A stretch of 64,000 nt of DNA, from the NCBI GenBank assembly GCA_046340555.1, contig JBKDSL010000006.1:21480-85479 (forward strand), given 5' to 3'. The notes below the pieces were generated by a model, which saw nothing but the letters and a program-made list of their open reading frames with translations, was not told the DNA's origin and searched no databases. Shown here in pieces: positions 9,156 through 62,206 of the stretch; the stretch's first letter is position 1; each line of letters opens with the position of its first letter. Both the position numbers and the translations under genes were made by a program. The stretch is from Bacteroidota bacterium (GTDB taxonomy: Bacteria; Bacteroidota; Bacteroidia; AKYH767-A; OLB10).

Positions 9156-11084
9156 TCACCTCTTGCCTGAATGGAATTTTTCCAGCCACATTTGAAGTAC
9201 TATCAACTGCCAAAGTCGGTTGTACATGAATTCAGAACCTGAAAAATAGGCATCGCGGCACGCTTTGACCGCGCTGAATTCCAAAACGCCATATTTATTT
9301 ACCGTATCTTCCGATAGATAATAGTCAATAAGGTATTTCAAGGAGGTTTGCAACCATTTGTTCAGTGGGATGGCAAAGCCTTGTTTGGGTTTGTCAAAAA
9401 GGTGCTTTGGCACATATTGGTATAAAACCTTTTTAAGGATGTATTTTGAAATACCGTTTCTATACTTGAGGTTAGGCGATATGTTTAGTGCCATTTCCAC
9501 TATCCGGTGGTCGAGGTATGGAACCCGAGTTTCTATGGAGTATTTCATACTTGCCCGGTCTACCTTCGTTAGCAAGTCGTCTTGCAGGTAGTTTTCTACA
9601 TCATACAAAGCTTGCAGTTCGATGGCTTTCAGTCGACGCTCTTGAACATCAATACCTCCTTCAGCATCAGTATTAGTAACCAAACGCTTATAGTTGCCTG
9701 AGAAAAAGGCCTCCGACTCAGATATATCCACTTCTGTTTGGTTTTTGAGCAGCCCCGGTATTTCCTTTTCTGCAAACAGGTATTGCTCTTGAGAAAAGAT
9801 GTGGCTTCTGAGACTTCGTGGGTTGTCGTAATCCAAAAGCCTGGAAATTCGTTGGTAGCGGGATGACATTCTTCCCAGGATGTTGCTTGCTGGCTTCCTG
9901 AGTAAATTTATGATTGGATTTGATAATCTGTTGGCCCAAACATAGGAGCCATATCCGAAAAACAATTCATCGCCACCTTCACCTGACAAGGTTACTCTTA
10001 CATATTGACTAGCCAACTTGGATACAAGCATAGTAGGAATACACGACGAATCGGCAAACGGCTCATCATATGTATCTGTGATCGTATCAATCAATTTGAG
10101 CGCATCCTTGTATGAAATGATAAATTCATGGTGTGTAGTTCCTAGAAAGTTGGCAACCGCTTTGGCATACTCCGATTCATTGTGGCTGTTCTCTTCAAAT
10201 CCTATGGAAAAGGTGTTGACCTTGATGCTTGAGAGCATAGTTGCTTGGGCGGAAATCAAGCTTGAATCAATTCCGCCGCTTAGAAACACTCCAAAAGGAA
10301 CGTCACTTTTTAATTGATATTGAACGGAACTGATCATCAAGTCGCTGATCTTCACCATGGCTTGGTCATCACGAACAATGAGATTACTGGAAATTTTATT
10401 GTGAATGCTCCAGTATTTCTTGGTTTCAATACCTGTGGCACTGATTTTCATCATTGTGCCACTATTCATTTTGTAGATATTCTTGTAGATGGAGTAGGGG
10501 GCTGGAACATATCCGAAATGCAGATATCTGTTGATGGCGGCATGGTTTATTTCCAGAGGAATCTGCTCTAGACTTGTAAGGCTCTTAAGTTCTGAAGCAA
10601 ATGCGAAGTTTTTCCCATCCCAATAATAATACAGCGGCTTGATTCCTAGTCGGTCCCGGTAGAGGTAAAGTTCATTTTTACTTCGGTCGTAAATGGCAAA
10701 TGCAAACATGCCATTCAGCTCTTGAACAAAGTCGGGTCCATATTTTGCAAATGCCTCTAAGAGCACTTCAGTATCCGACGATGATTTGAAAGCAAAGTCC
10801 GATGTGCCTTGGGTGATTTTTCCGAACCGTGCTCCGATTTCACGGTAATTGTAAACCTCTCCGTTGTAAACAATCACATATCTATCATTGGCTGAGTACA
10901 TAGGCTGTGAAGCCCTTGTAGAAAGGTCAATGATACTAAGCCTTCGATGTCCAAGAGAACATGGGCCGTCATGGAATTCTCCACCCGAATCCGGACCTCT
11001 GTGCTGCAAACGGTCGGTCATGACCTTTATTTGGTCCTGTCGGAAAAAACCGCTGGTTGAATAATATCCCGCTATGCCACACAT
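9156..11084 (-). CDS. Asparagine synthase (glutamine-hydrolysing) family amidotransferase, AsnB/WbpS-like
   Basis: MCGIAG N-terminal nucleophile of class II glutamine amidotransferases, plus the SGGIDSS PP-loop in the synthetase domain. 642 aa. Confidence 0.85.
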   Translation of the reverse strand: MCGIAGYYSTSGFFRQDQIKVMTDRLQHRGPDSGGEFHDGPCSLGHRRLSIIDLSTRASQPMYSANDRYVIVYNGEVYNYREIGARFGKITQGTSDFAFKSSSDTEVLLEAFAKYGPDFVQELNGMFAFAIYDRSKNELYLYRDRLGIKPLYYYWDGKNFAFASELKSLTSLEQIPLEINHAAINRYLHFGYVPAPYSIYKNIYKMNSGTMMKISATGIETKKYWSIHNKISSNLIVRDDQAMVKISDLMISSVQYQLKSDVPFGVFLSGGIDSSLISAQATMLSSIKVNTFSIGFEENSHNESEYAKAVANFLGTTHHEFIISYKDALKLIDTITDTYDEPFADSSCIPTMLVSKLASQYVRVTLSGEGGDELFFGYGSYVWANRLSNPIINLLRKPASNILGRMSSRYQRISRLLDYDNPRSLRSHIFSQEQYLFAEKEIPGLLKNQTEVDISESEAFFSGNYKRLVTNTDAEGGIDVQERRLKAIELQALYDVENYLQDDLLTKVDRASMKYSIETRVPYLDHRIVEMALNISPNLKYRNGISKYILKKVLYQYVPKHLFDKPKQGFAIPLNKWLQTSLKYLIDYYLSEDTVNKYGVLEFSAVKACRDAYFSGSEFMYNRLWQLIVLQMWLEKFHSGKR

Positions 11085-17519: not shown

Positions 17520-20228
17520 ATGAAAATCAGAGTAGGAGTCGTTTTTGGAGGTACATCAATGGAGCGGGAAATCTCCTTTGCTGGAGGGCGTACGGTTTAC
17601 GATAATCTTGATAAGTCCCTTTTTGAAGCAATTCCGATTTTCATTGACTCATTCAATAATCTGATTATCCTTGATTGGGAGTATATTTACAAAGGAAGTA
17701 TTCGGGATTTTTATCCGCCTTTTAACAAGGTCGAGCATTCGTCAAATGGTTATCAGGTTTATGCCGAATCTTTAGGCGATTTGGATCCGCCATCACAATT
17801 GAGTCTTACATCAAAACTAGGTACTCGTATTGAGCCCTCGACATTGACTTCTTTGATCGATTTTGCATTCCTGTGCTTGCATGGAACAAATGGAGAAGAT
17901 GGTCGCATTCAAGGAATGTTAGAGTTTTACGGAGTGCCTTATTCTGGCACTGGAATTTTTTCCTCGGCTGTTGGGATGAATAAGCATTTGCAAAAGGACT
18001 TGATGGCTAGGTATGGTTTCAAGGTGCCTGAATTCACTTCAATCGACCGACAAACTTGGCTGTCGATTTCCGACCGTGATTCGATGATGAAGTTAATTGC
18101 AGGTAAAGTTGGAGCTCCTTTTGTTGTCAAGTCTGCTAACCAAGGTTCATCCATTGGAGTCTCTTTTGTTGATGGGTTGGACGCCGATGCCTTTGGAAAC
18201 GCTGTAGATCGATCCTTCTTCATAAGGAGAATTAAAAGATCTTTCTGGACAGAACTCAACCATCAGCAAAAGGTTGAATATGTCAGGACTCTTTCAGATA
18301 TACGCGAAGGAATCGGATTGCCGTTGATTATCTCCGGTAAGGTGATTTATCATCCTGAAGAGCTGTTATCGAATTTGAATCAACTATTCTCAGAGCAAGG
18401 CGATGAATACCTGTTGGAGGCTTTGGATAGTGAGCAGACGGTTTTGTTCGAGCGGTTCATTAAAGGCAAGGAGTTTTCATGTATTGTAATTGATGGTTTG
18501 CAAGGTGAGCCAATAGCATTGCCACCAACAGAGATCAGAAAGGGCTCGGAGGTTTATGATTACAGATCCAAATATCTACCTGGGCTTTCTCGTAAGATTA
18601 CACCAATAGATCTGCCAACGGAATCCATTGGGCAAATCAGGGAATCTTGCTGCAGGCTGTTTGAGTCATTGGGCTTTGGTGTTTATGCTCGCATAGATGG
18701 ATTTTTCTCTGCTGAAGGAGAAATATTCTTAAACGACCCAAATACTACATCCGGGATGCTTCCATCATCCTTCTTTTTCCATCAGGCGGCAGAAATCGGA
18801 TTGACTCCATCACAGTTTATCACTTTCATCATACACCGATCATTGCGGCGTAGGGAAGTTGGTTCAAATGATTTGAGGAAAAGTCTTGGTTTAATTCAAA
18901 GTCTGGAAAGGTCTTTGCATGAATGCAAAAAGTCCTCCAATTCGAAAAAACGTATTGCGGTGATTTTGGGTGGCTACTCTTCTGAAAGGCACATCTCTGT
19001 TGAAAGCGGGCGGAACATATTCGAGAAACTATCTTCATCTGAAAAATACACGCCGATTCCTTTGTTTCTTTCAGGCGATAGTGCATCTCATAAGCTTCAT
19101 GTTATTCCAATTAACATTTTGCTCAAAGACAATGCAGACGATATAAGGGAGAAGGTTTTGCATTTTGACAGGCATCCTGTGTTGCAGGATATCATAGATG
19201 AGTGTAATGAGATCACTGAATTGTTTTCTGACGGCAACGCGTTGAAGCCTCCTTTTGAGATTGCCTATGCAGAGCTTCCTAGCATGGTTGATGGTGTTTT
19301 CATCGCATTGCATGGTAGACCTGGTGAGGATGGTGAAGTTCAATCCCATCTTGATCGCGTTTGTCTACCTTATAACGGGTCTGGACCTGCTTCATCAAAA
19401 ATCACCATTGACAAATTTGAAACCAATGAGATTTTGATGTCTAATGGGGTTCATGCTGCCAAGCATATGGTTCTTCTTGGCAACGATTGGCGCAAAGACC
19501 CTTCTCGTTTCGAGGATATCGTTTTGGAGTCATTCAATTATCCGATAATCGCTAAACCTGTTGATGATGGTTGTAGCTCTGCTGTCAAGATCATCCGCAA
19601 TAGCGCCCAATTGCACGCGTTTTGCGAGTTGATTTTCAGGGAAGTTGATGAACTGCTGATTCCGGCATCAGAAATTCTGAAAATCAAGCCTAAAGAGGAG
19701 TTCCCAAGAAAAGATCGCTTCCTTGTTGAAGAATTGATTTCAAAATCTGAAGCAGATAGGTTTTTGGAGATTACGGGAGGACTGATGACCTTCTATGCTG
19801 CCAATGGAGAACTTCGATACGAGGTGTTCGAGGCTTCCGAGGCATTGTCTGAAGGAGATGTGTTGTCTTTGGAGGAAAAGTTTCTTGCGGGTCAAGGTCA
19901 AAATATCACTCCTGCACGGTACAGTTCAGATCCGATTGAAAACAAAAGAATTTCAGCTGAAGTAAAAAAAGTTCTTGAACATACTGCAAAAGTGTTGAAT
20001 GTTGAAGGGTATGCTCGAATAGACGCTTTTGTCAGGATATTTCGAGATGGGAAAGTGGAGGTTTTGGTCATCGAGGTAAATTCATTACCAGGAATGACGC
20101 CAGCCACGTGTATATTCCATCAGGCGGCAATCAATGATTATAAACCATTCGAATTTATCGACAAACTTATTGATTTCGGCATACAACGCAATCAGCGACT
20201 CCCCAATCAAACGGGTTCCAGGAAATGA
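17520..20228 (+). CDS. ddl: Tandem-duplicated D-alanine--D-alanine ligase-like protein (two complete Ddl/ATP-grasp modules in one 902-aa ORF)
   Basis: Module 1: KIRVGVVFGGTSMEREIS, FVVKSANQGSSIGVSF, ARIDGFF...IFLNDPNTTSGM. Module 2 from about aa 480: KKRIAVILGGYSSERHISVESG, IIAKPVDDGCSSAVKI, ARIDAFV...VIEVNSLPGMT. One uninterrupted reading frame. Confidence 0.8.
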   Translation: MKIRVGVVFGGTSMEREISFAGGRTVYDNLDKSLFEAIPIFIDSFNNLIILDWEYIYKGSIRDFYPPFNKVEHSSNGYQVYAESLGDLDPPSQLSLTSKLGTRIEPSTLTSLIDFAFLCLHGTNGEDGRIQGMLEFYGVPYSGTGIFSSAVGMNKHLQKDLMARYGFKVPEFTSIDRQTWLSISDRDSMMKLIAGKVGAPFVVKSANQGSSIGVSFVDGLDADAFGNAVDRSFFIRRIKRSFWTELNHQQKVEYVRTLSDIREGIGLPLIISGKVIYHPEELLSNLNQLFSEQGDEYLLEALDSEQTVLFERFIKGKEFSCIVIDGLQGEPIALPPTEIRKGSEVYDYRSKYLPGLSRKITPIDLPTESIGQIRESCCRLFESLGFGVYARIDGFFSAEGEIFLNDPNTTSGMLPSSFFFHQAAEIGLTPSQFITFIIHRSLRRREVGSNDLRKSLGLIQSLERSLHECKKSSNSKKRIAVILGGYSSERHISVESGRNIFEKLSSSEKYTPIPLFLSGDSASHKLHVIPINILLKDNADDIREKVLHFDRHPVLQDIIDECNEITELFSDGNALKPPFEIAYAELPSMVDGVFIALHGRPGEDGEVQSHLDRVCLPYNGSGPASSKITIDKFETNEILMSNGVHAAKHMVLLGNDWRKDPSRFEDIVLESFNYPIIAKPVDDGCSSAVKIIRNSAQLHAFCELIFREVDELLIPASEILKIKPKEEFPRKDRFLVEELISKSEADRFLEITGGLMTFYAANGELRYEVFEASEALSEGDVLSLEEKFLAGQGQNITPARYSSDPIENKRISAEVKKVLEHTAKVLNVEGYARIDAFVRIFRDGKVEVLVIEVNSLPGMTPATCIFHQAAINDYKPFEFIDKLIDFGIQRNQRLPNQTGSRK

Positions 20229-51240: not shown

Positions 51241-53085
51241 ATGTGCGGTATCGCTGGAATATTGGATTTTGAAATGGGGTTAGACGCCTCCAGGCAATTG
51301 ATGGAAGGTATGCTTCGCACACAAGCCCATCGTGGACCAGATGCTACTGGAATATGGAGTGGTGATGGAGTCGTCTTAGGACATAACCGACTTTCAATAA
51401 TTGATTTGTCTGATGCCGCCAACCAACCTATGGAATTCGATGGGTTGGTGCTGGTTTTTAATGGTGAGGTTTACAATTATATCGAGATAAGGAAGGAGCT
51501 GGAACTGCTCGGGCATGTATTCAGCACCTCTTCAGACACAGAGGTGGTTATACATGCGTATCGAGAATGGGGTGGGGGATGTGTCAACAGGTTTATGGGA
51601 ATGTGGGCTTTTGCTATTTGGGATGAGAAAAAACGGGTTCTTTTTGCTAGTCGCGACAGGTTTGGAATCAAGCCCTTTCATTATATCCGATCTGGCAACC
51701 GAATGCATTTCGCCAGTGAGGTTAAATCACTTAAACGATCACCGCTTTTTACCAACGAACTAAATTTGAATCAGGTCTCACGTGGTTTGCAGATGGGATG
51801 GATGAGCTATGGTGAGGAAACTTATTTCAATGCTGTAAAAAACATTCCAGCTGCACATAATATGTATTGCGGTGCAGATGGAGTTCGACTTGAGCGTTAT
51901 TGGGACTTATCCTCATCTGTTAAAACAGATGAAAGTTATGAGGGTAAGGTTGATCGGTTTCGAGAGAAATTTCTTGAAAGTATTAGTCTTCATCTTCGAA
52001 GCGACGTTCCTGTCGCTAGTTGTTTGAGTGGTGGTATTGATAGCTCTTCCATCGTTTCGGCCGTTCAACACGGCGGTCATAAGGGGGCATACAAGACTTT
52101 TAGTATATATTATGAGGGTAAAGGTGATGTTGATGAGCGTTCCTTTGTAAAGGATGTAGTTTCAAGGTATCCACAATTGGAGCCTCATTATTACAGTCCT
52201 ACGGATAATGAGATTTCCGATTCTTACGACCGAGCGCTATATCATTGTGATTTTCCAGCCACAGGAAGCTCGTTCATGTCACAGTACTTCCTGATGCAAT
52301 TGATTTCTCAGAATGGCATTAAGGTTGTTTTGGATGGTCAGGGAGCCGATGAGTATTTGGGAGGATACATGCATACATACTACCGTTTGATAGGGGATAT
52401 GCTCGGGACTTTTGGTTTTGGAAATGCCATAAGTGCTACTCGCTCAGTGACCAATAATATTGGACTTGGCACTGCTGGTAAGTTGGCGCATTTGGGTAAA
52501 AGCTTTTTGAACGTAGTGCTGTCTGAACAGCAGTTGTATGGACTGGAATACAAAAAGTACTATCCATTCCTATCAATAAACAAATCCGATACGGTACCTT
52601 TTAATCTGCAAGCAGACGGTCAAACGCGCGTAGATAAATTTTTATACAACTTGTTGTTCAGTACAAGTTTGCCAACATTATTGCATTTTGAGGATCGTAA
52701 TTCAATGGCATTCTCTATAGAATCTCGCGTTCCATTCCTGGATCATCGATTGGTGGAATATGCATTTTCTTTGAATGATGCGGATCGAATAACTCCAGAG
52801 AGGACCAAGAGGATATTGCGGGATGCTATGCGCGGTATTATACCCGATTCCGTATATAACCGAAAAGACAAAAAAGGTTTTGTCACCCCAGGTGAAAGCA
52901 AGTGGCTTCGTGGTCCGCTTTCCAGACTGGTTTCATCTGATATGAAAATACCTGATTTTTTAGATAAGGAGCGTGTAGGTAAGTTGTTAACTGACTATCG
53001 TAACGGCGACAATTCCAAAGCAACAATGGTTTGGAGGCTTGCCGTGTTGGTGGATTGGATAGGCAAAGGAAATGGTCATCCTTGA
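51241..53085 (+). CDS. Asparagine synthase (glutamine-hydrolysing) family amidotransferase, second paralogue
   Basis: MCGIAG N-terminus and SGGIDSS PP-loop. 614 aa. Confidence 0.85.
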   Translation: MCGIAGILDFEMGLDASRQLMEGMLRTQAHRGPDATGIWSGDGVVLGHNRLSIIDLSDAANQPMEFDGLVLVFNGEVYNYIEIRKELELLGHVFSTSSDTEVVIHAYREWGGGCVNRFMGMWAFAIWDEKKRVLFASRDRFGIKPFHYIRSGNRMHFASEVKSLKRSPLFTNELNLNQVSRGLQMGWMSYGEETYFNAVKNIPAAHNMYCGADGVRLERYWDLSSSVKTDESYEGKVDRFREKFLESISLHLRSDVPVASCLSGGIDSSSIVSAVQHGGHKGAYKTFSIYYEGKGDVDERSFVKDVVSRYPQLEPHYYSPTDNEISDSYDRALYHCDFPATGSSFMSQYFLMQLISQNGIKVVLDGQGADEYLGGYMHTYYRLIGDMLGTFGFGNAISATRSVTNNIGLGTAGKLAHLGKSFLNVVLSEQQLYGLEYKKYYPFLSINKSDTVPFNLQADGQTRVDKFLYNLLFSTSLPTLLHFEDRNSMAFSIESRVPFLDHRLVEYAFSLNDADRITPERTKRILRDAMRGIIPDSVYNRKDKKGFVTPGESKWLRGPLSRLVSSDMKIPDFLDKERVGKLLTDYRNGDNSKATMVWRLAVLVDWIGKGNGHP

Positions 53086-55357: not shown

Positions 55358-58300
55358 ATGTTGTCATTGAGTACTAAAACTAATCACGTAATGAACAGGC
55401 TTCCATTCAATTGGATACTGGGGTTGATGCTAATAAGCATCGGGTCGGTATATGGTCAGGTCAATTTTTCGGCCTCCCAACAAATTGGGTGTATACCCTT
55501 CAACGTGCAATTTGAAAACCTAACTCCTGGCGCAACCAACTGTACCTGGCGATTTACCGAGACATCAACCGGAATAACCTCAACAATAGATTCAACCTTT
55601 AATCCATCTAAGAGCTTTATCGCACCAGGTCATTATGATGTCAAGCTAATTGTCAATTATTCAAACGGAACTATTGATTCCTTGACAAGGAATACGTTTA
55701 TAACCGCCAAGAGTGCTCCACAGCCTTCTTTCTCAGCACCGGTTTTATCTGCATGTTTTCAAAACAATCAGATATCATTCATTAATTCAACATCTGCCAC
55801 ATATGACTCCTTATTGTGGGATTTCGGAGATGGTACTACAAGCAATGTTTCTAACCCTGTGCATGGATATACAGCTTCTGGCTATTTCGATGTAACATTG
55901 ATTGTTTACGCGAATGGTTGCAGCAGTGCACTCACCAGAAACTCATATATTAATATATTAAATAATCCGCCAACAGCATTTTTTGCCGATACCCTGGTTA
56001 CATGTAACGCATCACAGCCGATTTCTTTTACTTCCCAAACAGTTGGAACTTCTAACTATATATGGAATTTTGGTGATGGAACTAGCAGTACTCAAGCCAA
56101 TCCTCAGCATACATATGCTGGTCCTGGTGTTTACGATGTTACTTTGATAACCATAAACTCACTAGGATGTAGGGATACTGCGTTCATGCCTGCTTACATA
56201 AATGTTTTAAATAATCCTGTACCGGTGATTTCAGTATCTGGTGGATTAAACAGGTGCGTACCTGTATACGCAACTTTTTCAACTACCACTAGCAACATCC
56301 AGTCATGGACATGGAATGTTGGTAGTAATACGTTCTCAACGCCCTCCTTTCAGCAGAACTATTTTGCTCCAGGAACTTATCCAGTCACACTTACTGCCAA
56401 TTATACCAATGGGTGTACAAACAGCAAAACAGTTGTATTAAACGCGCGTCCATTGGATATAGCATATTTTACCGCCTCCACGTATAATGCCTGTGCACCC
56501 GTTACGATCGCATTGAGCCATCAAACAACTTCATCCAACCTAACTTACAGTTGGCAGTTGGGAAATGGAACCACATCAACTACGGGCCCCAATGTAAATG
56601 TTGCCTATAATTCGCCTGGCACTTATCTTCCATCCTTAACTGTTACTAATTCTTATGGATGTAGCAACACCCAATATGCGACTAATCCAATAACGGTAAC
56701 TGCTGTGGATGCGCAATTCACAGCTGATGACATAAACGGCTGCCCTCCCCACGCTGTAAACTTCAGTCACCCTGGAGGAGCTGGCTATTCTTATCTGTGG
56801 AATTTCGGTGATGGAAGGTCATCTACCCAACAGAACCCTTCCCATACTTATGTAAATCCGGGTTCTTATCCAGTTAGTTTAACCGTTACAAATCAAAGCG
56901 GATGCATGCATACATATAGCATGCCATCTCCTGTATTGGTAAACAACGGGGTTAATAATTTTGTACCAGGCGATACCATTTATGGGTGTGCCCCGTATAC
57001 AGCAAACCTTTATGATAACTCATCTAGTTCTTCAAGCTGGCTTTGGAGTTTTGGCGATGGCGCGACTTCTACAAGTGCCAATGCCATTCACACCTATAAC
57101 CAAGCAGGTGTTTATAATGTGACACTACAAACCCAGTCAAACGGAAGCTCGTGTTCGCAGTTTGTTAATCCATTCATTACTTATGTGTTGACCGAAGGGG
57201 AAGCCAATTTTTCTGTTACCAATACATTGTGTCCTCCTTATACATCTACATTCATTGATTCATCCATTAATGCAGTATCATGGTTTTGGGATTTTGGTGA
57301 TGGTACCACATCTACCCTTCAAAACCCATCTCATGTTTATACCAATGGCGGTTCTTACAATGTGTCGCTTACTATTACCACATCAGCAGGATGTACCTAT
57401 ACAATGGTTCAGAATTTTGCTGCCAATTTCAATCCGTTGAATGCAAGTCCTACAGGATTTGTGGTTACACTGATTCCTCCAACAGTCCAATTCAATGCCA
57501 ATAGCACAGGTGCTACGGGATGGTTGTGGAACTTTGGCGATGGAACAACTTCTTCGCTTCAGAATCCGCTACACATATATCCCACCTCCGGCGGACCGTT
57601 TCCATTAAGTTTGATCATATTCAATAATGGATGTGCAGACACCTTGTCTTTCGCACCTCCTGCTTCAAGTGGACCTCCTATCGGCTCCCCAATTGATCCA
57701 CCCGTTGGGCCACCAGGTGGAGGTCCGATAAACACTCCTGATCCGATTGCTGGATGCGCCCCATTCAATATGGGATTCAACAACCCGGTTCAAGGTGCGA
57801 TTTCCTCTGTTTGGCATTTTGGTGATGGTAACACATCATATTTGAACAGCCCTGATCATATTTATACTGCTGCAGGACTTTATACTGTAACACTCATAAC
57901 GGTGAACAGTGCTGGATCAACAGATACTCTTCAATGGTTGAATGCGGTACGTGTGAATGCGGTTTCGGCCGATTTCAATTATACTTCCTCGTCAGGCTGT
58001 ACAGGATCAACTATTACCTTGAATAACAACTCTACCACTGGTGCAACATATAGTTGGGCTTTTGGTGACGGAACACAATCAAGCCTTTTCGAGCCCACTC
58101 ATCAATATGGGTTGAGTGGCATGAATCATCTCATTACGCTCAATGTGACCGATTCAATGGGCTGCTCAGCATCCAAAAGCATCACCTATTATGCATCTGG
58201 TACCAATCCTATTTCCGCAAGCAAGAAAAAGGTCTGCAAAAACGAACCGATATCCTTTTTTAACAATAACCCGGGATATGCGACTTATTTATGGGATTTT

Positions 58301-61204
58301 GGTGATGGAAATACTTCTTCATTACCAAATCCAGTTCATTCCTATACGGCCGGAGGTGTATTCAATGTAGTACTTACAGTGGTGGATGTAGCACAATGCA
58401 CAACGGTGTTCAATATGCCCTATCCAATCGAGATCTATGCTCCAAATGCTGATTTCTCCTTCGCTTTGATTCCTGCCAGTTGCAACTCTCCATCTGTCAA
58501 TTTCACTAACCTATCGACCGGCGCCACATCTTATTTGTGGGATTTTGGCAATGGACTTATGAGTAGTGCAGTGAGCCCTTCCATCACGCTGAATACATAT
58601 GGTTCACACAATGTGACTTTGATAGCTGCTTCTGGTTCTTGTGTTGACACCATGACACTTACCGGTTATGCGGTAAGACCTAATATCATCGCCAATTTTT
58701 CTTACACGCAAGACAGGATCTGTTTCCCGATCACCATCACGGTTACCAATACGAGCATTGATGGATCAACTTATTTGTGGGATTTTGGTGATGGTACAAC
58801 TAGCACAACCACCGATTCCGTATTTACGCATGTGTTCACATCACAACCTCAAAATCCTATCACTCTATCAGCTTGGAATTCTTTGGGATGTTTGAACGTG
58901 GCGTCCAAGCCCAACATTCAATCTATGCAGGTGTCTTTCAATGTGGCTGACTCAGTCGGATGTGCGCCCTTTGCATTCCAGATAAGTGGAACATCCAATC
59001 TTAATGCTTCATGGTATTTCAACTATGGCAATGGTTTAACCTCATCCATTCCAAACACTCAGCATGCCAATGCTTCCACAATTTTCAACCATAATGGAAA
59101 TTATGTGGTGAATGCTGTTGTTACGGCTCCTACCGGTTGTATTCAGCGTTTTGATAGTTTGGTTACGGTTTCGGCTACAGGGCCCTCTGCATCCTTTAAT
59201 TTAACGGCAGACTCCTCCTGTGCTCCAACTATTGTTACGTTCCAAGACGGAAGCTATGGCGCACAATCATGGTTCTGGACCTTTGGAAACGGTAACCAAT
59301 CCGCTTTGCAAAACCCTACGCATGTGTACAATGTGCCAGGTACATACGACATCACTTTGGTAGTGACCGACTCTTCAGGTTGTACCGACACCCTTACGCA
59401 AACTGAAGCAGTACAAATAACAGGTACTTATTCACATTTCACTTCAACCGATCCGACAGGATGCGCTCCTTGGACCGTTGCATTCAGCGATTCATCTGTA
59501 AATGCCTCTACATGGCTGTGGGATTTTGGCGATGGAAATTCTTCTTCTGACCCTAATCCTGTTCACACCTATACACAAGCTGGGGTTTATGCGGTGATTT
59601 TGATTACTTACGAGAGTTCTGGATGTTCATCAGCTTACCAGCTACCAGATTCGATCCGGGTAAGTGAGATACCTGAGGCATTGTTCACAATATCAGGAAC
59701 CAGTGGTTGTGCGCCTTATCTCGTTACGTTCAGCAATCAAAGCACTGGAGCGGTTAGTTATGACTGGGATTTTGGTGACGGTTCTCATTCCAATAGTGTA
59801 AATACATCCCATTCCTATGTGTCATCTGGAACCTATTGGGTGACGTTGATAGCAAATTCCCTCAATGGATGTTCCGATACCTTCACGTATCAGATGCCTG
59901 TTGTTGTTGGTGAAATACCCCTGGGTAGCATCATTGCTTCAGCTACTTCAGGCTGTGCTCCATTGAATGTTGTTTTCACATCCAATATTTCCAACGCGGA
60001 TTCCACTGCATTATATTCATGGAATTACAATGGAAACAACTATAGTGGCTCCAGTCTAAATTTGACATTTGCGCAAAATGGAACACATCAGGTTCAATTA
60101 TCAGTTACCAATCAGTCCGGTTGTAGTGCCACATTCAGCGCTACTGCAACTACCCATGGTGCCGATACCCTTGGTCCTGTTGTAATGCGAAGTGCTAGTG
60201 TTTTGGGTCCGAATAACGTAGAAATTAAATGGGCAGACATCATTGATCCGGAATTGGCTTATTACCGAATTTACCGAATGGATAATTCCACTGGTAATTT
60301 CAATCTTATTCACACCTCATACAGCATCATTCCGGTAAACCCAGATGTGTATCAGGCTTGGGTAGATCATGCTACCACCACATCCTCGAAAACCAATACG
60401 TATTTAGTTCAGGCTGTTAATACTTGTGGCTTAGCTGCTCCGCTAAACGCCCACACACCTCATACCACAGTAAACTTGGAGGTGAATACGGCATCTAGCA
60501 CTCCGACTTTGCAATGGAATAGCTACGGTGGAGCTTCTACTTCAGGATATCTGGTTCAACGTATGGACGAGCCAAATGCACCTTGGACTAACTTGACAGT
60601 TGTTCCTGCTTCGGTCAATATGTATGTTGACAGCTCCGTTTATTGCTCTGATAGTGTTTCTTACCGCATTACCGCACTTGATTTGAACGGGCTGCCCATA
60701 TTCGATGCATTCTCCGATATTGAGAACATATTGGCTCCAGGCTCATTGTTGATTCAACGCGTGGACATGGTTCGTTCAACCGTGGAAGACGACTCTTGGG
60801 TATTAACGGAATGGTCAATGCCAACATTGGCTCCTCAATTGGTTACAGGATTCGAACTTTTCCGTTCAACCGACAACATCAATTTTACCCGAATCGCTGT
60901 TTTACCTCCTGTTCAAACCAGTTATGAGGATCGAAATGTTTCAGTTAAATCGCAGGAGTATTTTTATAGGGTCAAGGTGAGTAACACCTGTTCGTTGGAA
61001 GCATCTTCAGGATATGAAAGCTCTTCGATTTTGCTGCTGGCTAATCCAGACCAGCGATACGGTGTGAACTTACGCTGGACTCCCTATGTGAATTGGGATA
61101 CTGGTGTGGAAGAATATGTAATCGAGGAGTGGAATCAGGCTACTGGGACATGGGACTATGTCAAAAAAGTTGACGGGTCGACCACTGAAACAGGAGTGCA
61201 ATAA
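55358..61204 (+). CDS. Giant secreted PKD-domain array protein (about 19 tandem PKD domains, a Pro-rich linker, and C-terminal Fn3-like modules)
   Basis: Signal peptide; the W(D/N)FGDGTTS...NP.H.Y...G.Y.V.L...N..GC unit is repeated about 19 times. No T9SS C-terminal domain was recognised at the C-terminus. Confidence 0.8.
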   Translation: MLSLSTKTNHVMNRLPFNWILGLMLISIGSVYGQVNFSASQQIGCIPFNVQFENLTPGATNCTWRFTETSTGITSTIDSTFNPSKSFIAPGHYDVKLIVNYSNGTIDSLTRNTFITAKSAPQPSFSAPVLSACFQNNQISFINSTSATYDSLLWDFGDGTTSNVSNPVHGYTASGYFDVTLIVYANGCSSALTRNSYINILNNPPTAFFADTLVTCNASQPISFTSQTVGTSNYIWNFGDGTSSTQANPQHTYAGPGVYDVTLITINSLGCRDTAFMPAYINVLNNPVPVISVSGGLNRCVPVYATFSTTTSNIQSWTWNVGSNTFSTPSFQQNYFAPGTYPVTLTANYTNGCTNSKTVVLNARPLDIAYFTASTYNACAPVTIALSHQTTSSNLTYSWQLGNGTTSTTGPNVNVAYNSPGTYLPSLTVTNSYGCSNTQYATNPITVTAVDAQFTADDINGCPPHAVNFSHPGGAGYSYLWNFGDGRSSTQQNPSHTYVNPGSYPVSLTVTNQSGCMHTYSMPSPVLVNNGVNNFVPGDTIYGCAPYTANLYDNSSSSSSWLWSFGDGATSTSANAIHTYNQAGVYNVTLQTQSNGSSCSQFVNPFITYVLTEGEANFSVTNTLCPPYTSTFIDSSINAVSWFWDFGDGTTSTLQNPSHVYTNGGSYNVSLTITTSAGCTYTMVQNFAANFNPLNASPTGFVVTLIPPTVQFNANSTGATGWLWNFGDGTTSSLQNPLHIYPTSGGPFPLSLIIFNNGCADTLSFAPPASSGPPIGSPIDPPVGPPGGGPINTPDPIAGCAPFNMGFNNPVQGAISSVWHFGDGNTSYLNSPDHIYTAAGLYTVTLITVNSAGSTDTLQWLNAVRVNAVSADFNYTSSSGCTGSTITLNNNSTTGATYSWAFGDGTQSSLFEPTHQYGLSGMNHLITLNVTDSMGCSASKSITYYASGTNPISASKKKVCKNEPISFFNNNPGYATYLWDFGDGNTSSLPNPVHSYTAGGVFNVVLTVVDVAQCTTVFNMPYPIEIYAPNADFSFALIPASCNSPSVNFTNLSTGATSYLWDFGNGLMSSAVSPSITLNTYGSHNVTLIAASGSCVDTMTLTGYAVRPNIIANFSYTQDRICFPITITVTNTSIDGSTYLWDFGDGTTSTTTDSVFTHVFTSQPQNPITLSAWNSLGCLNVASKPNIQSMQVSFNVADSVGCAPFAFQISGTSNLNASWYFNYGNGLTSSIPNTQHANASTIFNHNGNYVVNAVVTAPTGCIQRFDSLVTVSATGPSASFNLTADSSCAPTIVTFQDGSYGAQSWFWTFGNGNQSALQNPTHVYNVPGTYDITLVVTDSSGCTDTLTQTEAVQITGTYSHFTSTDPTGCAPWTVAFSDSSVNASTWLWDFGDGNSSSDPNPVHTYTQAGVYAVILITYESSGCSSAYQLPDSIRVSEIPEALFTISGTSGCAPYLVTFSNQSTGAVSYDWDFGDGSHSNSVNTSHSYVSSGTYWVTLIANSLNGCSDTFTYQMPVVVGEIPLGSIIASATSGCAPLNVVFTSNISNADSTALYSWNYNGNNYSGSSLNLTFAQNGTHQVQLSVTNQSGCSATFSATATTHGADTLGPVVMRSASVLGPNNVEIKWADIIDPELAYYRIYRMDNSTGNFNLIHTSYSIIPVNPDVYQAWVDHATTTSSKTNTYLVQAVNTCGLAAPLNAHTPHTTVNLEVNTASSTPTLQWNSYGGASTSGYLVQRMDEPNAPWTNLTVVPASVNMYVDSSVYCSDSVSYRITALDLNGLPIFDAFSDIENILAPGSLLIQRVDMVRSTVEDDSWVLTEWSMPTLAPQLVTGFELFRSTDNINFTRIAVLPPVQTSYEDRNVSVKSQEYFYRVKVSNTCSLEASSGYESSSILLLANPDQRYGVNLRWTPYVNWDTGVEEYVIEEWNQATGTWDYVKKVDGSTTETGVQ
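55500..60150 (+). repeat. Tandem array of roughly 240-nt coding repeats (PKD domains) inside the giant ORF
   Basis: TGGGATTTTGGTGATGG-like cores recur at about 55817, 56068, 56799, 57041, 57285, 57525, 57815, 58057, 58296, 58540, 58780, 59277, 59519 and 59765. The repeats are diverged and protein-coding, not a CRISPR array. Confidence 0.7.
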
Positions 61205-61243: not shown

Positions 61244-62206
61244 TTACAAAACCTGGTGCGTCTTTTCCGACTTTCCAACAGCTTTTAATTTAGCATTTTC
61301 AATGGATGCGTTCAATTCAAAGCCTACAATCAATTGAAGTGTGTTGAAGTTGATGTAAAGCAGAATCACTATAAGTGTTCCGATAGATCCGTAAAGTTTG
61401 TTGTATTGGCCGAAGTTGCTAATGATATAGTTGAACGCGAATGTTGTGATAAGGAGCAACACTGTGGCGGTAACAGATCCAACAGAAATGAAAGGGCGTT
61501 TATTCTTTTTTGATGGACCGAAATAGTAAAGCGATGATATCGAGGTTAGCGCCATGGTTACCAATATAAACCAGGTTCCCGCTTGTATTAACAGGAGGCT
61601 AGGGCCGTTTTTGATAACATCATGTTCGGTTAGGTATCGGGAAGTGATTTCAGTAAAGGTGATGAGCGCAATGGATGCAAGAACGATGATTGCCAGCATA
61701 AGCGTCAAGAATAGCGAGACCAAGCGTTGCTTGAATGCAGATCGTACATCAATTCCGTGATAGCTTTTGTTGAATCCATCAATCAGGTAATATATGCCAT
61801 TTGTGGATACAAGCAACGCGAAAACAAAGCCAAAGGATAGCAATCCGCCGCGAGGTTGCTTGAGTATGTCTTCAATGGTGGTTTTGGTAGCTTCAAATGC
61901 GCTATGCGGCAGCGCTTCGCTCATCAAGAGCATGATGCGGTCTTGGATACCGGGGACTGGTAGGTAGGGGATAAGGGTAAAAAAGAAAATAATGGCTGGG
62001 AAAATTGCCAGGAAAAAGTCGAAAGACGCAGCACTCGCTCTAGAACGAATATCACCTTTTTGTAGGCCTATGACAAAGAACTTGAGAATATCGAGCAGGC
62101 TGATGTGTTCTTTGCCAGGATATCGAACACGTTTCAATATCGTTAAAACAGGGTCGAGAATCCTTTCGCGTATTACTTGTTTGAGTTTTGCAGCTTGCTC
62201 CTTCAC
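61244..62206 (-). CDS. YihY/BrkB (virulence factor BrkB / ribonuclease BN-like) family inner-membrane protein
   Basis: Six TM helices and a YGSIGTLIVILLYINFNTLQLIVGFELNASI C-terminal motif. Confidence 0.8.
   Translation of the reverse strand: MKEQAAKLKQVIRERILDPVLTILKRVRYPGKEHISLLDILKFFVIGLQKGDIRSRASAASFDFFLAIFPAIIFFFTLIPYLPVPGIQDRIMLLMSEALPHSAFEATKTTIEDILKQPRGGLLSFGFVFALLVSTNGIYYLIDGFNKSYHGIDVRSAFKQRLVSLFLTLMLAIIVLASIALITFTEITSRYLTEHDVIKNGPSLLLIQAGTWFILVTMALTSISSLYYFGPSKKNKRPFISVGSVTATVLLLITTFAFNYIISNFGQYNKLYGSIGTLIVILLYINFNTLQLIVGFELNASIENAKLKAVGKSEKTHQVL

What the first reader, a model, noticed from the sequence alone, without database searches (positions are those of the whole stretch)
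55358..61204. 1948-aa protein of about 19 tandem PKD domains with no recognisable T9SS sorting domain
The protein has a signal peptide followed by about 19 PKD units (W-x-FGDG-T-S...NP-H-Y...G-Y-V-L...N-x-GC). A Pro/Gly-rich linker (PPASSGPPIGSPIDPPVGPPGGGPINTPDP, nt about 57640-57740) divides them into blocks of 9 and 10. Three Fn3-like beta-sandwich modules follow.
In this lineage such PKD giants normally end in a T9SS type A or type B C-terminal domain. The other three secreted proteins in this window carry clear type A domains. This one ends ...WDYVKKVDGSTTETGVQ, with only 40 nt before the next convergent gene. How it is exported and anchored is therefore unclear: a divergent C-terminal domain, a lost C-terminal domain, or another route.
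The Cys pair in each unit (C...GC) suggests disulfide-stabilised modules. The protein sits directly downstream of glycan cluster 2.
Basis: partly seen in the sequence, partly recalled or inferred. Interest (0 to 1): 0.55.

Follow-up and report, generated by a model that had tools for sequence, protein, structure and literature searches.

The report
Split secretion substrate: tail encoded elsewhere
This giant surface-type protein really has no secretion tail of its own, because an ancient gene split moved the last two strands of its final domain and the type IX secretion signal into a separate 143-residue protein encoded elsewhere in the genome, which suggests that the signal is supplied in trans.

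Summary
ORF 55358-61204 (more likely starting at 55391) encodes a signal peptide, 19 PKD units (9 + 10 around a Pro/Gly linker) and Fn3-fold modules. It has no T9SS type A or B domain, even at E<=10.

The end is not an artefact. About 50 genomes and 56 cluster representatives stop at the same residue, and the tail is under strong purifying selection (dN/dS about 0.02).

The C-terminus is three Fn3 modules plus a conserved partial fourth that ends after strand E. Unsplit relatives complete this fourth Fn3 and add a canonical type B CTD (TIGR04131). All truncated forms make one clade.

The missing piece is a separate small gene: signal peptide, strands F-G (KYRVTAYK...SxSN) and a type B CTD. I found 230 clusters at 90% identity. 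In many lineages it lies 8-30 nt upstream of the giant. In a relative with an 86%-identical giant it lies 236 kb away on the same chromosome. In the window's own MAG it appears to be MFN9595832.1 (giant: MFN9595239.1).

Best explanation: the small protein completes the giant's half domain by strand complementation and supplies T9SS targeting and anchoring in trans. The fission and co-occurrence are shown. Complementation and co-secretion are inferred. My literature searches found no precedent.

The parts
55358..61204 (+). Gene for the CTD-less PKD/Fn3 giant. It is 1948 aa from the first ATG. The likely true start is 55391, giving 1937 aa (= MFN9595239.1).
   Evidence: orthologue P0387 aligns from aa 12
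55391..55456 (+). Sec-type signal peptide MNRLPFNWILGLMLISIGSVYG|Q. It has no lipobox Cys.
   Evidence: Read directly from the sequence. The same layout is seen in about 35 full-length orthologues. No signal-peptide predictor was available.
55457..57652 (+). PKD units 1-9
57656..57745 (+). Pro/Gly-rich central linker. Its position is conserved in most of the family; its sequence is variable.
57734..60142 (+). PKD units 10-19
60176..61036 (+). Three complete Fn3-fold modules (aa 1607-1700, 1701-1788, 1789-1893). No Pfam fn3 sequence hit.
61037..61201 (+). Partial fourth Fn3 (through strand E). It lacks strands F and G and ends in ...VDGSTTETGVQ. This is the proposed docking site for the small F-G + type B CTD protein.
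   Evidence: Collinear alignment with unsplit relatives. The same end is seen in about 50 loci. dN/dS 0.019. Low pLDDT (45-68) when modelled alone.
61244..62206 (-). Convergent BrkB/YihY-family gene that bounds the 3' end. It leaves no room for a CTD-coding continuation.
   Evidence: six-frame HMM scans of the whole window for F-G + type B CTD are negative

Best explanation
The gene is an intact, conserved member of a large clade of roughly 1,700-2,000-aa PKD/Fn3 proteins. The clade arose from T9SS type B CTD proteins by one gene fission inside the last Fn3 domain, in the loop between strands E and F.

The giant keeps the signal peptide, 19 PKD units, three Fn3 modules and the first part of the fourth. 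The missing strands F and G and the type B CTD are made as a separate secreted protein of about 145 aa. In the window's MAG this is most likely P0328 (MFN9595832.1), encoded on another contig next to the lpxD-lpxC/fabZ-lpxA cluster.

Proposed mechanism:
1. Both proteins enter the periplasm through Sec.
2. The N-terminal F-G hairpin of the small protein completes the giant's open beta-sandwich by strand complementation.
3. The small protein's uncleaved type B CTD is recognised by the T9SS and a PorP/SprF-type shuttle.
4. The giant is carried out and held on the cell surface, as a roughly 19-PKD-long fibre, by a non-covalent joint.

Shown: the truncation is real and conserved; the fission is collinear; the small gene is present, widely distributed, and either linked or on the same chromosome; it has a type B CTD.

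Inferred: physical complementation, co-translocation, surface anchoring, and an adhesin or fibre role.
For: 1. No cis CTD.
2. Conserved end: about 50 loci stop at the same position, as do 56 of the top 150 cluster representatives.
3. Selection: the half domain is as conserved as the rest of the protein. dN 0.040 against saturated dS gives omega about 0.02.
4. Unsplit relatives (P0099, P0111, P0128, P0132, P0143, P0078 and others) continue with ...YCYRVxA...SLSNExC plus a type B CTD. P0099 scores 48 bits on TIGR04131.
5. All truncated forms make one clade in an NJ tree.
6. Small genes encoding signal peptide + KRYRVTAYK..SLSN + TIGR04131 domain (60-62 bits against a cut-off of 35) lie 8-30 nt upstream of the giant.
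7. Giant tail plus mature small protein aligns collinearly with unsplit proteins, with no overlap and 0-4 extra residues at the seam.
8. There are 230 small-protein clusters at 90% identity, nearly all 124-209 aa and all carrying PF13585.
9. The AF2 model of the small protein shows a confident CTD (pLDDT 92-97) preceded by a two-strand hairpin of lower confidence, about 69. The half Fn3 modelled alone has low confidence.
10. Window lineage: chromosome CM128552.1 carries the 86%-identical giant in the same gene context, and the small gene 236 kb away.
11. Window's own MAG: giant MFN9595239.1 and small protein MFN9595832.1 lie 593 accession numbers apart.
12. Literature: type B CTDs are not cleaved and hold proteins on PorP-like proteins (PMC9143113). 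Orphan type B substrates use unlinked shuttles (PMC12618676). The T9SS moves folded proteins (PMC9251779).
Against: - No experiment and no complex model.
- Transport of a non-covalent two-chain cargo by the T9SS has no precedent that I could find.
- In the window's lineage the two genes are unlinked, so co-regulation is unknown.
- The assignment of P0328 to the window's own MAG rests on an accession block and on a similar divergence from CM128552.1 at the two loci. It does not rest on a shared record.
- No PorP/SprF-like shuttle gene was seen next to any small gene.
- A second small accessory gene (signal peptide plus one complete Fn3) sits next to many giants, and its role is unexplained.
- I could not test whether every genome with a truncated giant has a small gene.
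Confidence: 0.6

Rival explanations
1. After the fission the two products became independent. The giant is a periplasmic or vesicle-lumen protein, or is released by an unknown route. The small protein is just a minimal type B CTD surface protein, like PG1035, which caps PorP.
For: The genes are unlinked in the window's lineage. PG1035-type proteins with no obvious cargo role exist (PMC9143113). No T9SS trans-cargo precedent was found.
Against: An orphan five-strand half domain would not be expected to remain under omega of about 0.02, or to be among the best-conserved parts of the protein, across clades only 30-45% identical. The F-G motif of the small proteins is nearly invariant. The two genes are tightly adjacent, 8-30 nt apart, in many lineages. 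A 19-PKD chain is an unlikely periplasmic resident.
Confidence: 0.15
2. Complementation happens outside the cell. The small protein is exported and anchored by its CTD with its F-G hairpin exposed, and it captures giants released by another route, by lysis, or by neighbouring cells. This would make a cell-cell or matrix link.
For: It rests on the same sequence complementarity as the main model. Type B CTD proteins stay anchored on PorP-like proteins (PMC9143113).
Against: It needs a second, unknown outer-membrane export route for a 200-kDa protein that has only a Sec signal peptide. No such system is encoded near any of the loci.
Confidence: 0.1
3. The conserved Fn3 region, including the half domain, is itself a new kind of T9SS (or other) sorting signal that the machinery recognises directly. 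An alternative version has it pairing with the other small accessory protein (signal peptide plus one complete Fn3).
For: The tail is conserved and always terminal. F. johnsoniae ChiA uses a CTD that matches neither TIGRFAM model (from memory, not checked here). The Fn3 accessory gene is adjacent to group B giants and lies between the small gene and the giant in L027 and L094.
Against: The same Fn3 modules occur internally, upstream of a normal type B CTD, in the unsplit relatives, so they are not a signal there. The accessory Fn3 is a complete domain with no free strands to donate. No CTD-like hit was found.
Confidence: 0.08
4. Sequencing or assembly frameshift, or a pseudogene: the true ORF once continued into a CTD.
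For: None beyond the absence of a CTD.
Against: The same stop position occurs in about 50 independent assemblies, two paralogue groups and 56 cluster representatives. There is strong purifying selection. The convergent gene lies 39 nt away. No CTD-like coding is found in any frame of the window. The protein is an exact match to an independently annotated NCBI protein.
Confidence: 0.01

Closest known systems
T9SS type B CTD surface proteins (F. johnsoniae SprB and Fjoh_3952; P. gingivalis PG1035)
   Same: The unsplit relatives have the same overall plan: Sec signal peptide, long array of Ig-like repeats, terminal TIGR04131 domain. The small partner carries a bona fide type B CTD. Type B CTDs stay attached and anchor proteins through PorP/SprF-like proteins (PMC9143113, PMC12618676).
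   Different: Here the CTD is on a different polypeptide from the cargo, and the break runs through the middle of a folded domain. No porP/sprF-like gene is adjacent, so this resembles the 'orphan' type B substrates of PMC12618676.
Donor-strand complementation in pili (chaperone-usher pili; Bacteroidota type V pili FimA/Mfa1)
   Same: An incomplete Ig-like sandwich is completed by strands from another polypeptide, giving a stable non-covalent joint. This is established knowledge, recalled from memory; Mfa reviews appeared.
   Different: No polymerisation, usher or protease step is implied. Two strands (F-G) are donated rather than one. The relation is by mechanism only, not by homology. No family membership is claimed.
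Tat 'hitchhiker' co-export (a signal peptide carried only by a partner subunit)
   Same: The concept of a secretion signal supplied in trans to a folded partner. This is established knowledge, recalled from memory.
   Different: A different machine, membrane and signal. In Tat the partners are distinct subunits, not two halves of one domain.
F. johnsoniae ChiA and other T9SS cargo with CTDs that match neither TIGRFAM model
   Same: A T9SS-era precedent that the absence of a TIGR04183 or TIGR04131 hit does not exclude T9SS export. Recalled from memory, not checked here.
   Different: ChiA has its own cis-acting C-terminal signal. The window protein ends in a truncated Fn3 that is internal in its relatives.

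Membership tests
PKD-domain repeat proteins (PF18911 / PF00801) | Significant matches to the PKD profile | tested here: met
   19 stretches, 658 bits against a cut-off of 27; 19 units by self-HMM
T9SS type A substrate | C-terminal TIGR04183 / PF18962 domain | tested here: not met
   No hit in the full protein, the last 348 aa or the last 120 aa at E<=10. As a positive control, three other window proteins do hit.
T9SS type B substrate (in cis) | C-terminal TIGR04131 / PF13585 domain on the same polypeptide | tested here: not met
   a custom F-G + CTD HMM against the six-frame window gave nothing
T9SS type B substrate (in cis) | N-terminal Sec signal peptide | tested here: inconclusive
   A typical n-h-c region with VYG|Q is visible in the sequence and in the orthologues. 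No predictor was available.
Proposed split type B substrate (giant + small F-G/CTD protein) | The giant ends after strand E of a terminal Fn3 that is complete in unsplit relatives | tested here: met
Proposed split type B substrate (giant + small F-G/CTD protein) | The same genome encodes a small protein with signal peptide, F-G strands and a TIGR04131 domain | tested here: met
   Shown on one chromosome for the 86%-identical orthologue (CM128552.1). For the window's own MAG it is inferred from the accession block MFN9595239 / MFN9595832. P0314, 94% identical to P0328, scores 62 bits on TIGR04131.
Proposed split type B substrate (giant + small F-G/CTD protein) | Physical complementation and T9SS-dependent co-export | not testable with these tools
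No multimer predictor and no experiment were available.
Type B CTD / PorP-SprF cognate pair | porP/sprF-like gene directly downstream of the CTD-bearing gene | tested here: not met
   None among the called neighbours of the small genes. Orphan type B substrates with unlinked shuttles are known (PMC12618676).
Fibronectin type III fold | Seven-strand beta-sandwich of Fn3 topology | tested here: met

The most novel reading that the evidence does not exclude
This would be the first two-piece T9SS substrate. A secretion and anchoring signal (type B CTD) is delivered in trans to a 200-kDa cargo through complementation of a split Fn3 domain. One small adaptor may serve two paralogous giants in the same genome, and the joint may give the cell a non-covalent, possibly releasable, attachment. 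It would imply that the T9SS can export non-covalent complexes.
Probability: 0.5. Interest if true: 0.85.

Novelty: new variant of a known kind. Interest (0 to 1): 0.72.

Why it matters
T9SS cargo is currently recognised, in genome annotation and in mechanistic models, by a CTD on the same polypeptide. A widespread and conserved family in which the CTD and two strands of the cargo's last domain sit on a separate small protein has three consequences:
1. CTD-based censuses miss a class of very large surface proteins.
2. The many roughly 145-aa 'gliding motility-associated C-terminal domain' proteins in metagenomes get a role as adaptors.
3. The question of whether the T9SS can carry non-covalent complexes, and how much of the cargo must be covalently joined to the CTD, becomes directly testable with a natural system.

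It is also a clean natural example of gene fission through the middle of a beta-sandwich domain that has been kept for a long evolutionary time.

Tried and rejected
1. Profile search of 1.84 billion representatives with A1. The profile unintentionally kept the PKD columns (529 positions), so the hit counts are meaningless. The top 150 hits were still useful once re-scored with a C-terminus-only HMM.
2. Search for the partner inside the window, using tblastn with tails of unsplit relatives and two HMMs on six-frame translations. Nothing was found. This is explained later by the 236-kb separation in the relative.
3. AF2 on chimeric giant-tail + small-protein sequences.
4. Neighbourhood clustering for a conserved export partner. 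It found only housekeeping synteny (BrkB-nadC-DUF4783), or a two-component system plus a 483-aa helical putative regulator at the paralogous locus. There were no outer-membrane components.
5. Linking the unlinked small gene of L089 to the window's lineage through shared neighbours. There was no overlap.
6. Foldseek of the small-protein model against the PDB. Only generic Ig-like hits came back; according to PMC12618676 no type B CTD structure has been solved.
7. Literature searches for trans-acting or piggyback T9SS cargo and for strand complementation in the T9SS. No precedent was found.
8. The idea that the adjacent small protein of group B (signal peptide + Fn3) is the strand donor. Rejected because its Fn3 is complete, and because it coexists with the F-G/CTD gene in L027 and L094.

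Full report
**1. Observation**

The ORF 55358-61204 (+) is real and encodes 1948 aa. Pfam finds 19 PKD_4 stretches. A self-HMM resolves 19 units of about 81 aa: nine before and ten after the linker PPASSGPPIGSPIDPPVGPPGGGPINTPDP (aa 767-796, nt 57656-57745). Each unit has two Cys at fixed positions, except units 9 and 10.

The N-terminus reads as a Sec signal peptide with no lipobox. The start used in NCBI and by orthologues is M12 (nt 55391). That 1937-aa form is an exact match to MFN9595239.1, whereas the 1948-aa form is not on record.

The last 348 aa (nt 60158-61201) have no Pfam or NCBIfam match. Neither TIGR04183 nor TIGR04131 is detected at E<=10, in this region or in the last 120 aa. 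Three other proteins in the window do carry type A CTDs, so the organism uses the T9SS. The stop codon is followed after 39 nt by the end of a convergent BrkB/YihY gene.

**2. The end is genuine and conserved**

A search with the C-terminal 348 aa found six relatives. Every one that includes its C-terminus stops at the same place. A scan of one genome per species found 102 relatives. In about 50 loci from uncultured Bacteroidia and Flavobacteriales MAGs the ORF ends 0-9 residues after the match. The proteins are remarkably uniform, mostly 1,835-1,945 aa, each with a signal peptide and a PKD array.

These loci fall into syntenic groups:
- Group A includes the window. Its neighbours are giant - BrkB(-) - nadC(-) - DUF4783(-).
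- Group B lies next to a histidine kinase and iPGM.
- Group C is the same locus as B, with the cassette inverted.

Several MAGs carry one A copy and one B copy.

The last 55 residues are as conserved as any part of the protein. Against L003, dN is 0.040 with saturated dS, giving omega of about 0.02. A frameshift, assembly error or pseudogene is therefore excluded.

**3. What the C-terminus is**

**4. Relatives that are not truncated**

I re-scored the top 150 representatives of the 1.84-billion-protein library with a C-terminus-only HMM. Of these, 56 end exactly like the window protein. Another 29 continue, most of them for 123-131 more residues.

These extensions first finish the fourth Fn3 (...YCYRVxAxExGG...SLSNExC). 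Most then carry a recognisable T9SS type B CTD motif (PNAFTPNGDGxND ... RWG ... WDG ... VTLIR). P0099 scores 48 bits on TIGR04131 against a cut-off of 35.

In a neighbour-joining tree of the shared module, all truncated forms make one clade beside the extended ones. Groups A and B are sister clades deep inside it, and group C and L027 branch earlier. One truncation event, followed by a long radiation, is the simplest reading. This is an NJ tree without support values.

**5. The missing piece is a separate gene**

tblastn with the 135-aa tails of unsplit relatives hit small ORFs immediately upstream of group C giants and of L027. These ORFs are 146-171 aa. They consist of:
- a signal peptide;
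- about 5-12 residues;
- 'KRYRVTAYK ... SLSNIAEAxP', which is strands F and G;
- a type B CTD.

Their stop codon lies 8-30 nt before the giant's ATG. P0157, P0215 and P0314 score 60-62 bits on TIGR04131.

I concatenated the giant tail and the mature small protein for nine natural pairs. Each concatenation aligns collinearly with 15 unsplit proteins, with no overlap and only 0-4 extra residues at the seam (alignment A3). This is the signature of a gene fission in the E-F loop.

Two searches found 230 clusters at 90% identity of such small proteins. Nearly all are 124-209 aa, all carry PF13585, and the F-G motif is nearly invariant. Contexts sampled from metagenomes repeat the trio small gene - giant (1,922-1,940 aa) - 483-aa helical protein.

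AF2 on P0314 with 123 homologues gives a very confident CTD (pLDDT 92-97). It is preceded by a two-strand hairpin at residues 27-34 and 41-50, of lower confidence (about 69). This fits a hairpin that needs a partner sheet.

**6. The window's own lineage**

Neither the window nor any group A or B locus has the small gene nearby. But unlinked copies exist elsewhere. L089 has one. L095-L099 have them at a conserved site after lpxD-lpxC/fabZ-lpxA-ABC.

Cluster membership gave the link:
- The window-type giant cluster holds P0387 (MGR6086989.1) on the 2.99-Mb chromosome CM128552.1.
- The small-protein cluster of P0314 holds P0390 (MGR6087169.1) on the same chromosome.

On CM128552.1 the giant is 86% identical to the window protein over aa 12-1948. 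It sits at about 562-568 kb in exactly the window's context: AsnB - GT4 - FkbM - giant - BrkB - nadC - DUF4783. The small gene sits at about 804 kb, after the lpx cluster, 236 kb away.

For the window's own MAG:
- the giant is MFN9595239.1;
- its neighbours are MFN9595238.1 and MFN9595240.1;
- the small protein P0328 is MFN9595832.1, which is 593 accession numbers further on.

P0328 lies on JBKCIF010000153.1 in the same lpx context. That contig is 84.5% identical in nucleotides to CM128552.1, against 80% for the window's giant locus. This is compatible with one genome pair. The accession-block argument is strong but indirect.

**7. Mechanism (inferred)**

Both proteins have Sec signal peptides. 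An Fn3 lacking F and G has lost two of the strands of the sheet that contains strand C, and with F the conserved tyrosine, so it should not be stable alone. The small protein offers exactly those two strands, followed directly by a type B CTD.

According to the literature:
- type B CTDs are not cleaved and hold their proteins on PorP/SprF-like outer-membrane proteins (PMC9143113);
- orphan type B substrates use unlinked shuttles (PMC12618676);
- the T9SS transports folded proteins (PMC9251779).

The simplest model is periplasmic strand complementation. The T9SS then exports the complex through the small protein's CTD, and the giant is displayed on the surface as a long PKD fibre held by a non-covalent joint. 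One adaptor might serve both the A and B paralogues.

I found no published case of a CTD acting in trans.

**8. Rivals**

- The two products may have become independent after the fission. The constraint on the half domain and on the F-G motif, and the tight operons in many lineages, argue against this.
- Capture of the giant outside the cell needs another export route, and none is visible.
- The Fn3 region acting as a new signal is contradicted by the same modules being internal in unsplit relatives.
- An artefact is refuted.

**9. Limits**

- There is no complex model and no experiment.
- Phyletic co-occurrence was not tested genome-wide.
- No shuttle gene was identified.
- The role of a second accessory gene is unknown. 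It encodes a signal peptide plus one complete Fn3, is adjacent to group B giants, and lies between the small gene and the giant in L027 and L094.
- The function of the PKD array (adhesin or fibre) is inferred from architecture only.

**10. Verdict**

The protein is a new variant of the T9SS type B substrate class, namely a split substrate. I am highly confident in the fission and the co-occurrence, and moderately confident (about 0.6) in the mechanism of trans targeting through complementation.

Noticed in passing
L011 3395-3973, L013 4985-5455, L020 1399-1986, L027 5415-5978, L094 5161-5607 and about 15 other loci: A second small accessory gene of about 150-195 aa (signal peptide or TM segment, one complete Fn3-like domain, short acidic tail, no CTD, no Pfam or NCBIfam hit). 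It sits directly upstream of group B giants. In L027 and L094 it lies between the F-G/CTD gene and the giant. Its role is unknown. It is absent from the window.
   Followed up: partly
L011 1577-3034 (-), L082 14364-15815, L085 14357-15811 and about 25 loci: A 483-aa all-helical protein with an HTH-like N-terminus and no Pfam hit is always next to the group B/C giant cassette, together with a histidine kinase and a receiver-only response regulator. This is probably a dedicated regulatory module. The cassette is inverted between groups B and C.
   Followed up: partly
L101 9437-10189, L106 7394-8146, L105 1325-2077: In the window's lineage the unlinked small F-G/CTD gene is followed after 44-47 nt by a conserved 250-aa protein with a signal peptide, an Fn3-like domain and a type A CTD.
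   Followed up: no
window 17520-20228 (+): A 902-aa ORF that matches D-alanine--D-alanine ligase models twice (about aa 1-445 and 477-884). It looks like a tandem fusion of two Ddl copies.
   Followed up: no
window 55358 vs 55391: There are two in-frame ATGs. Only the 1937-aa product from 55391 is on record in public collections, and orthologues align from there. The 11 extra N-terminal residues are probably not translated.
   Followed up: yes
window aa 689-860 of the giant (nt about 57422-57937): PKD units 9 and 10, which flank the central linker, each keep only one of the two otherwise conserved Cys (C759 and C800). A G/P/S-rich insert at this position is shared by most of the family, but its sequence is not conserved.
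   Followed up: partly
L018 / L020 (P0010, 2994-3010 aa); L011 (2339 aa): Some group B giants are much longer, with extra PKD units. Most of the family keeps a strikingly uniform length of about 1,835-1,945 aa, which hints at a length constraint.
   Followed up: no
CM128552.1 (GCA_052906025.1) and the CAMBYJ01, CALQOD01, CAMCXT01 records: NCBI organism labels on these MAGs ('Arcticibacter sp.', 'Chitinophaga pinensis') look unreliable for this uncultured lineage. I did not verify the taxonomy.
   Followed up: no
window 9156-11084 (-) and 51241-53085 (+): Two asparagine-synthase-type amidotransferases sit in glycan-type gene clusters. The first resembles the XrtA/PEP-CTERM-associated amidotransferase model TIGR03108 but scores below its cut-off (517 against 817 bits).
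   Followed up: no
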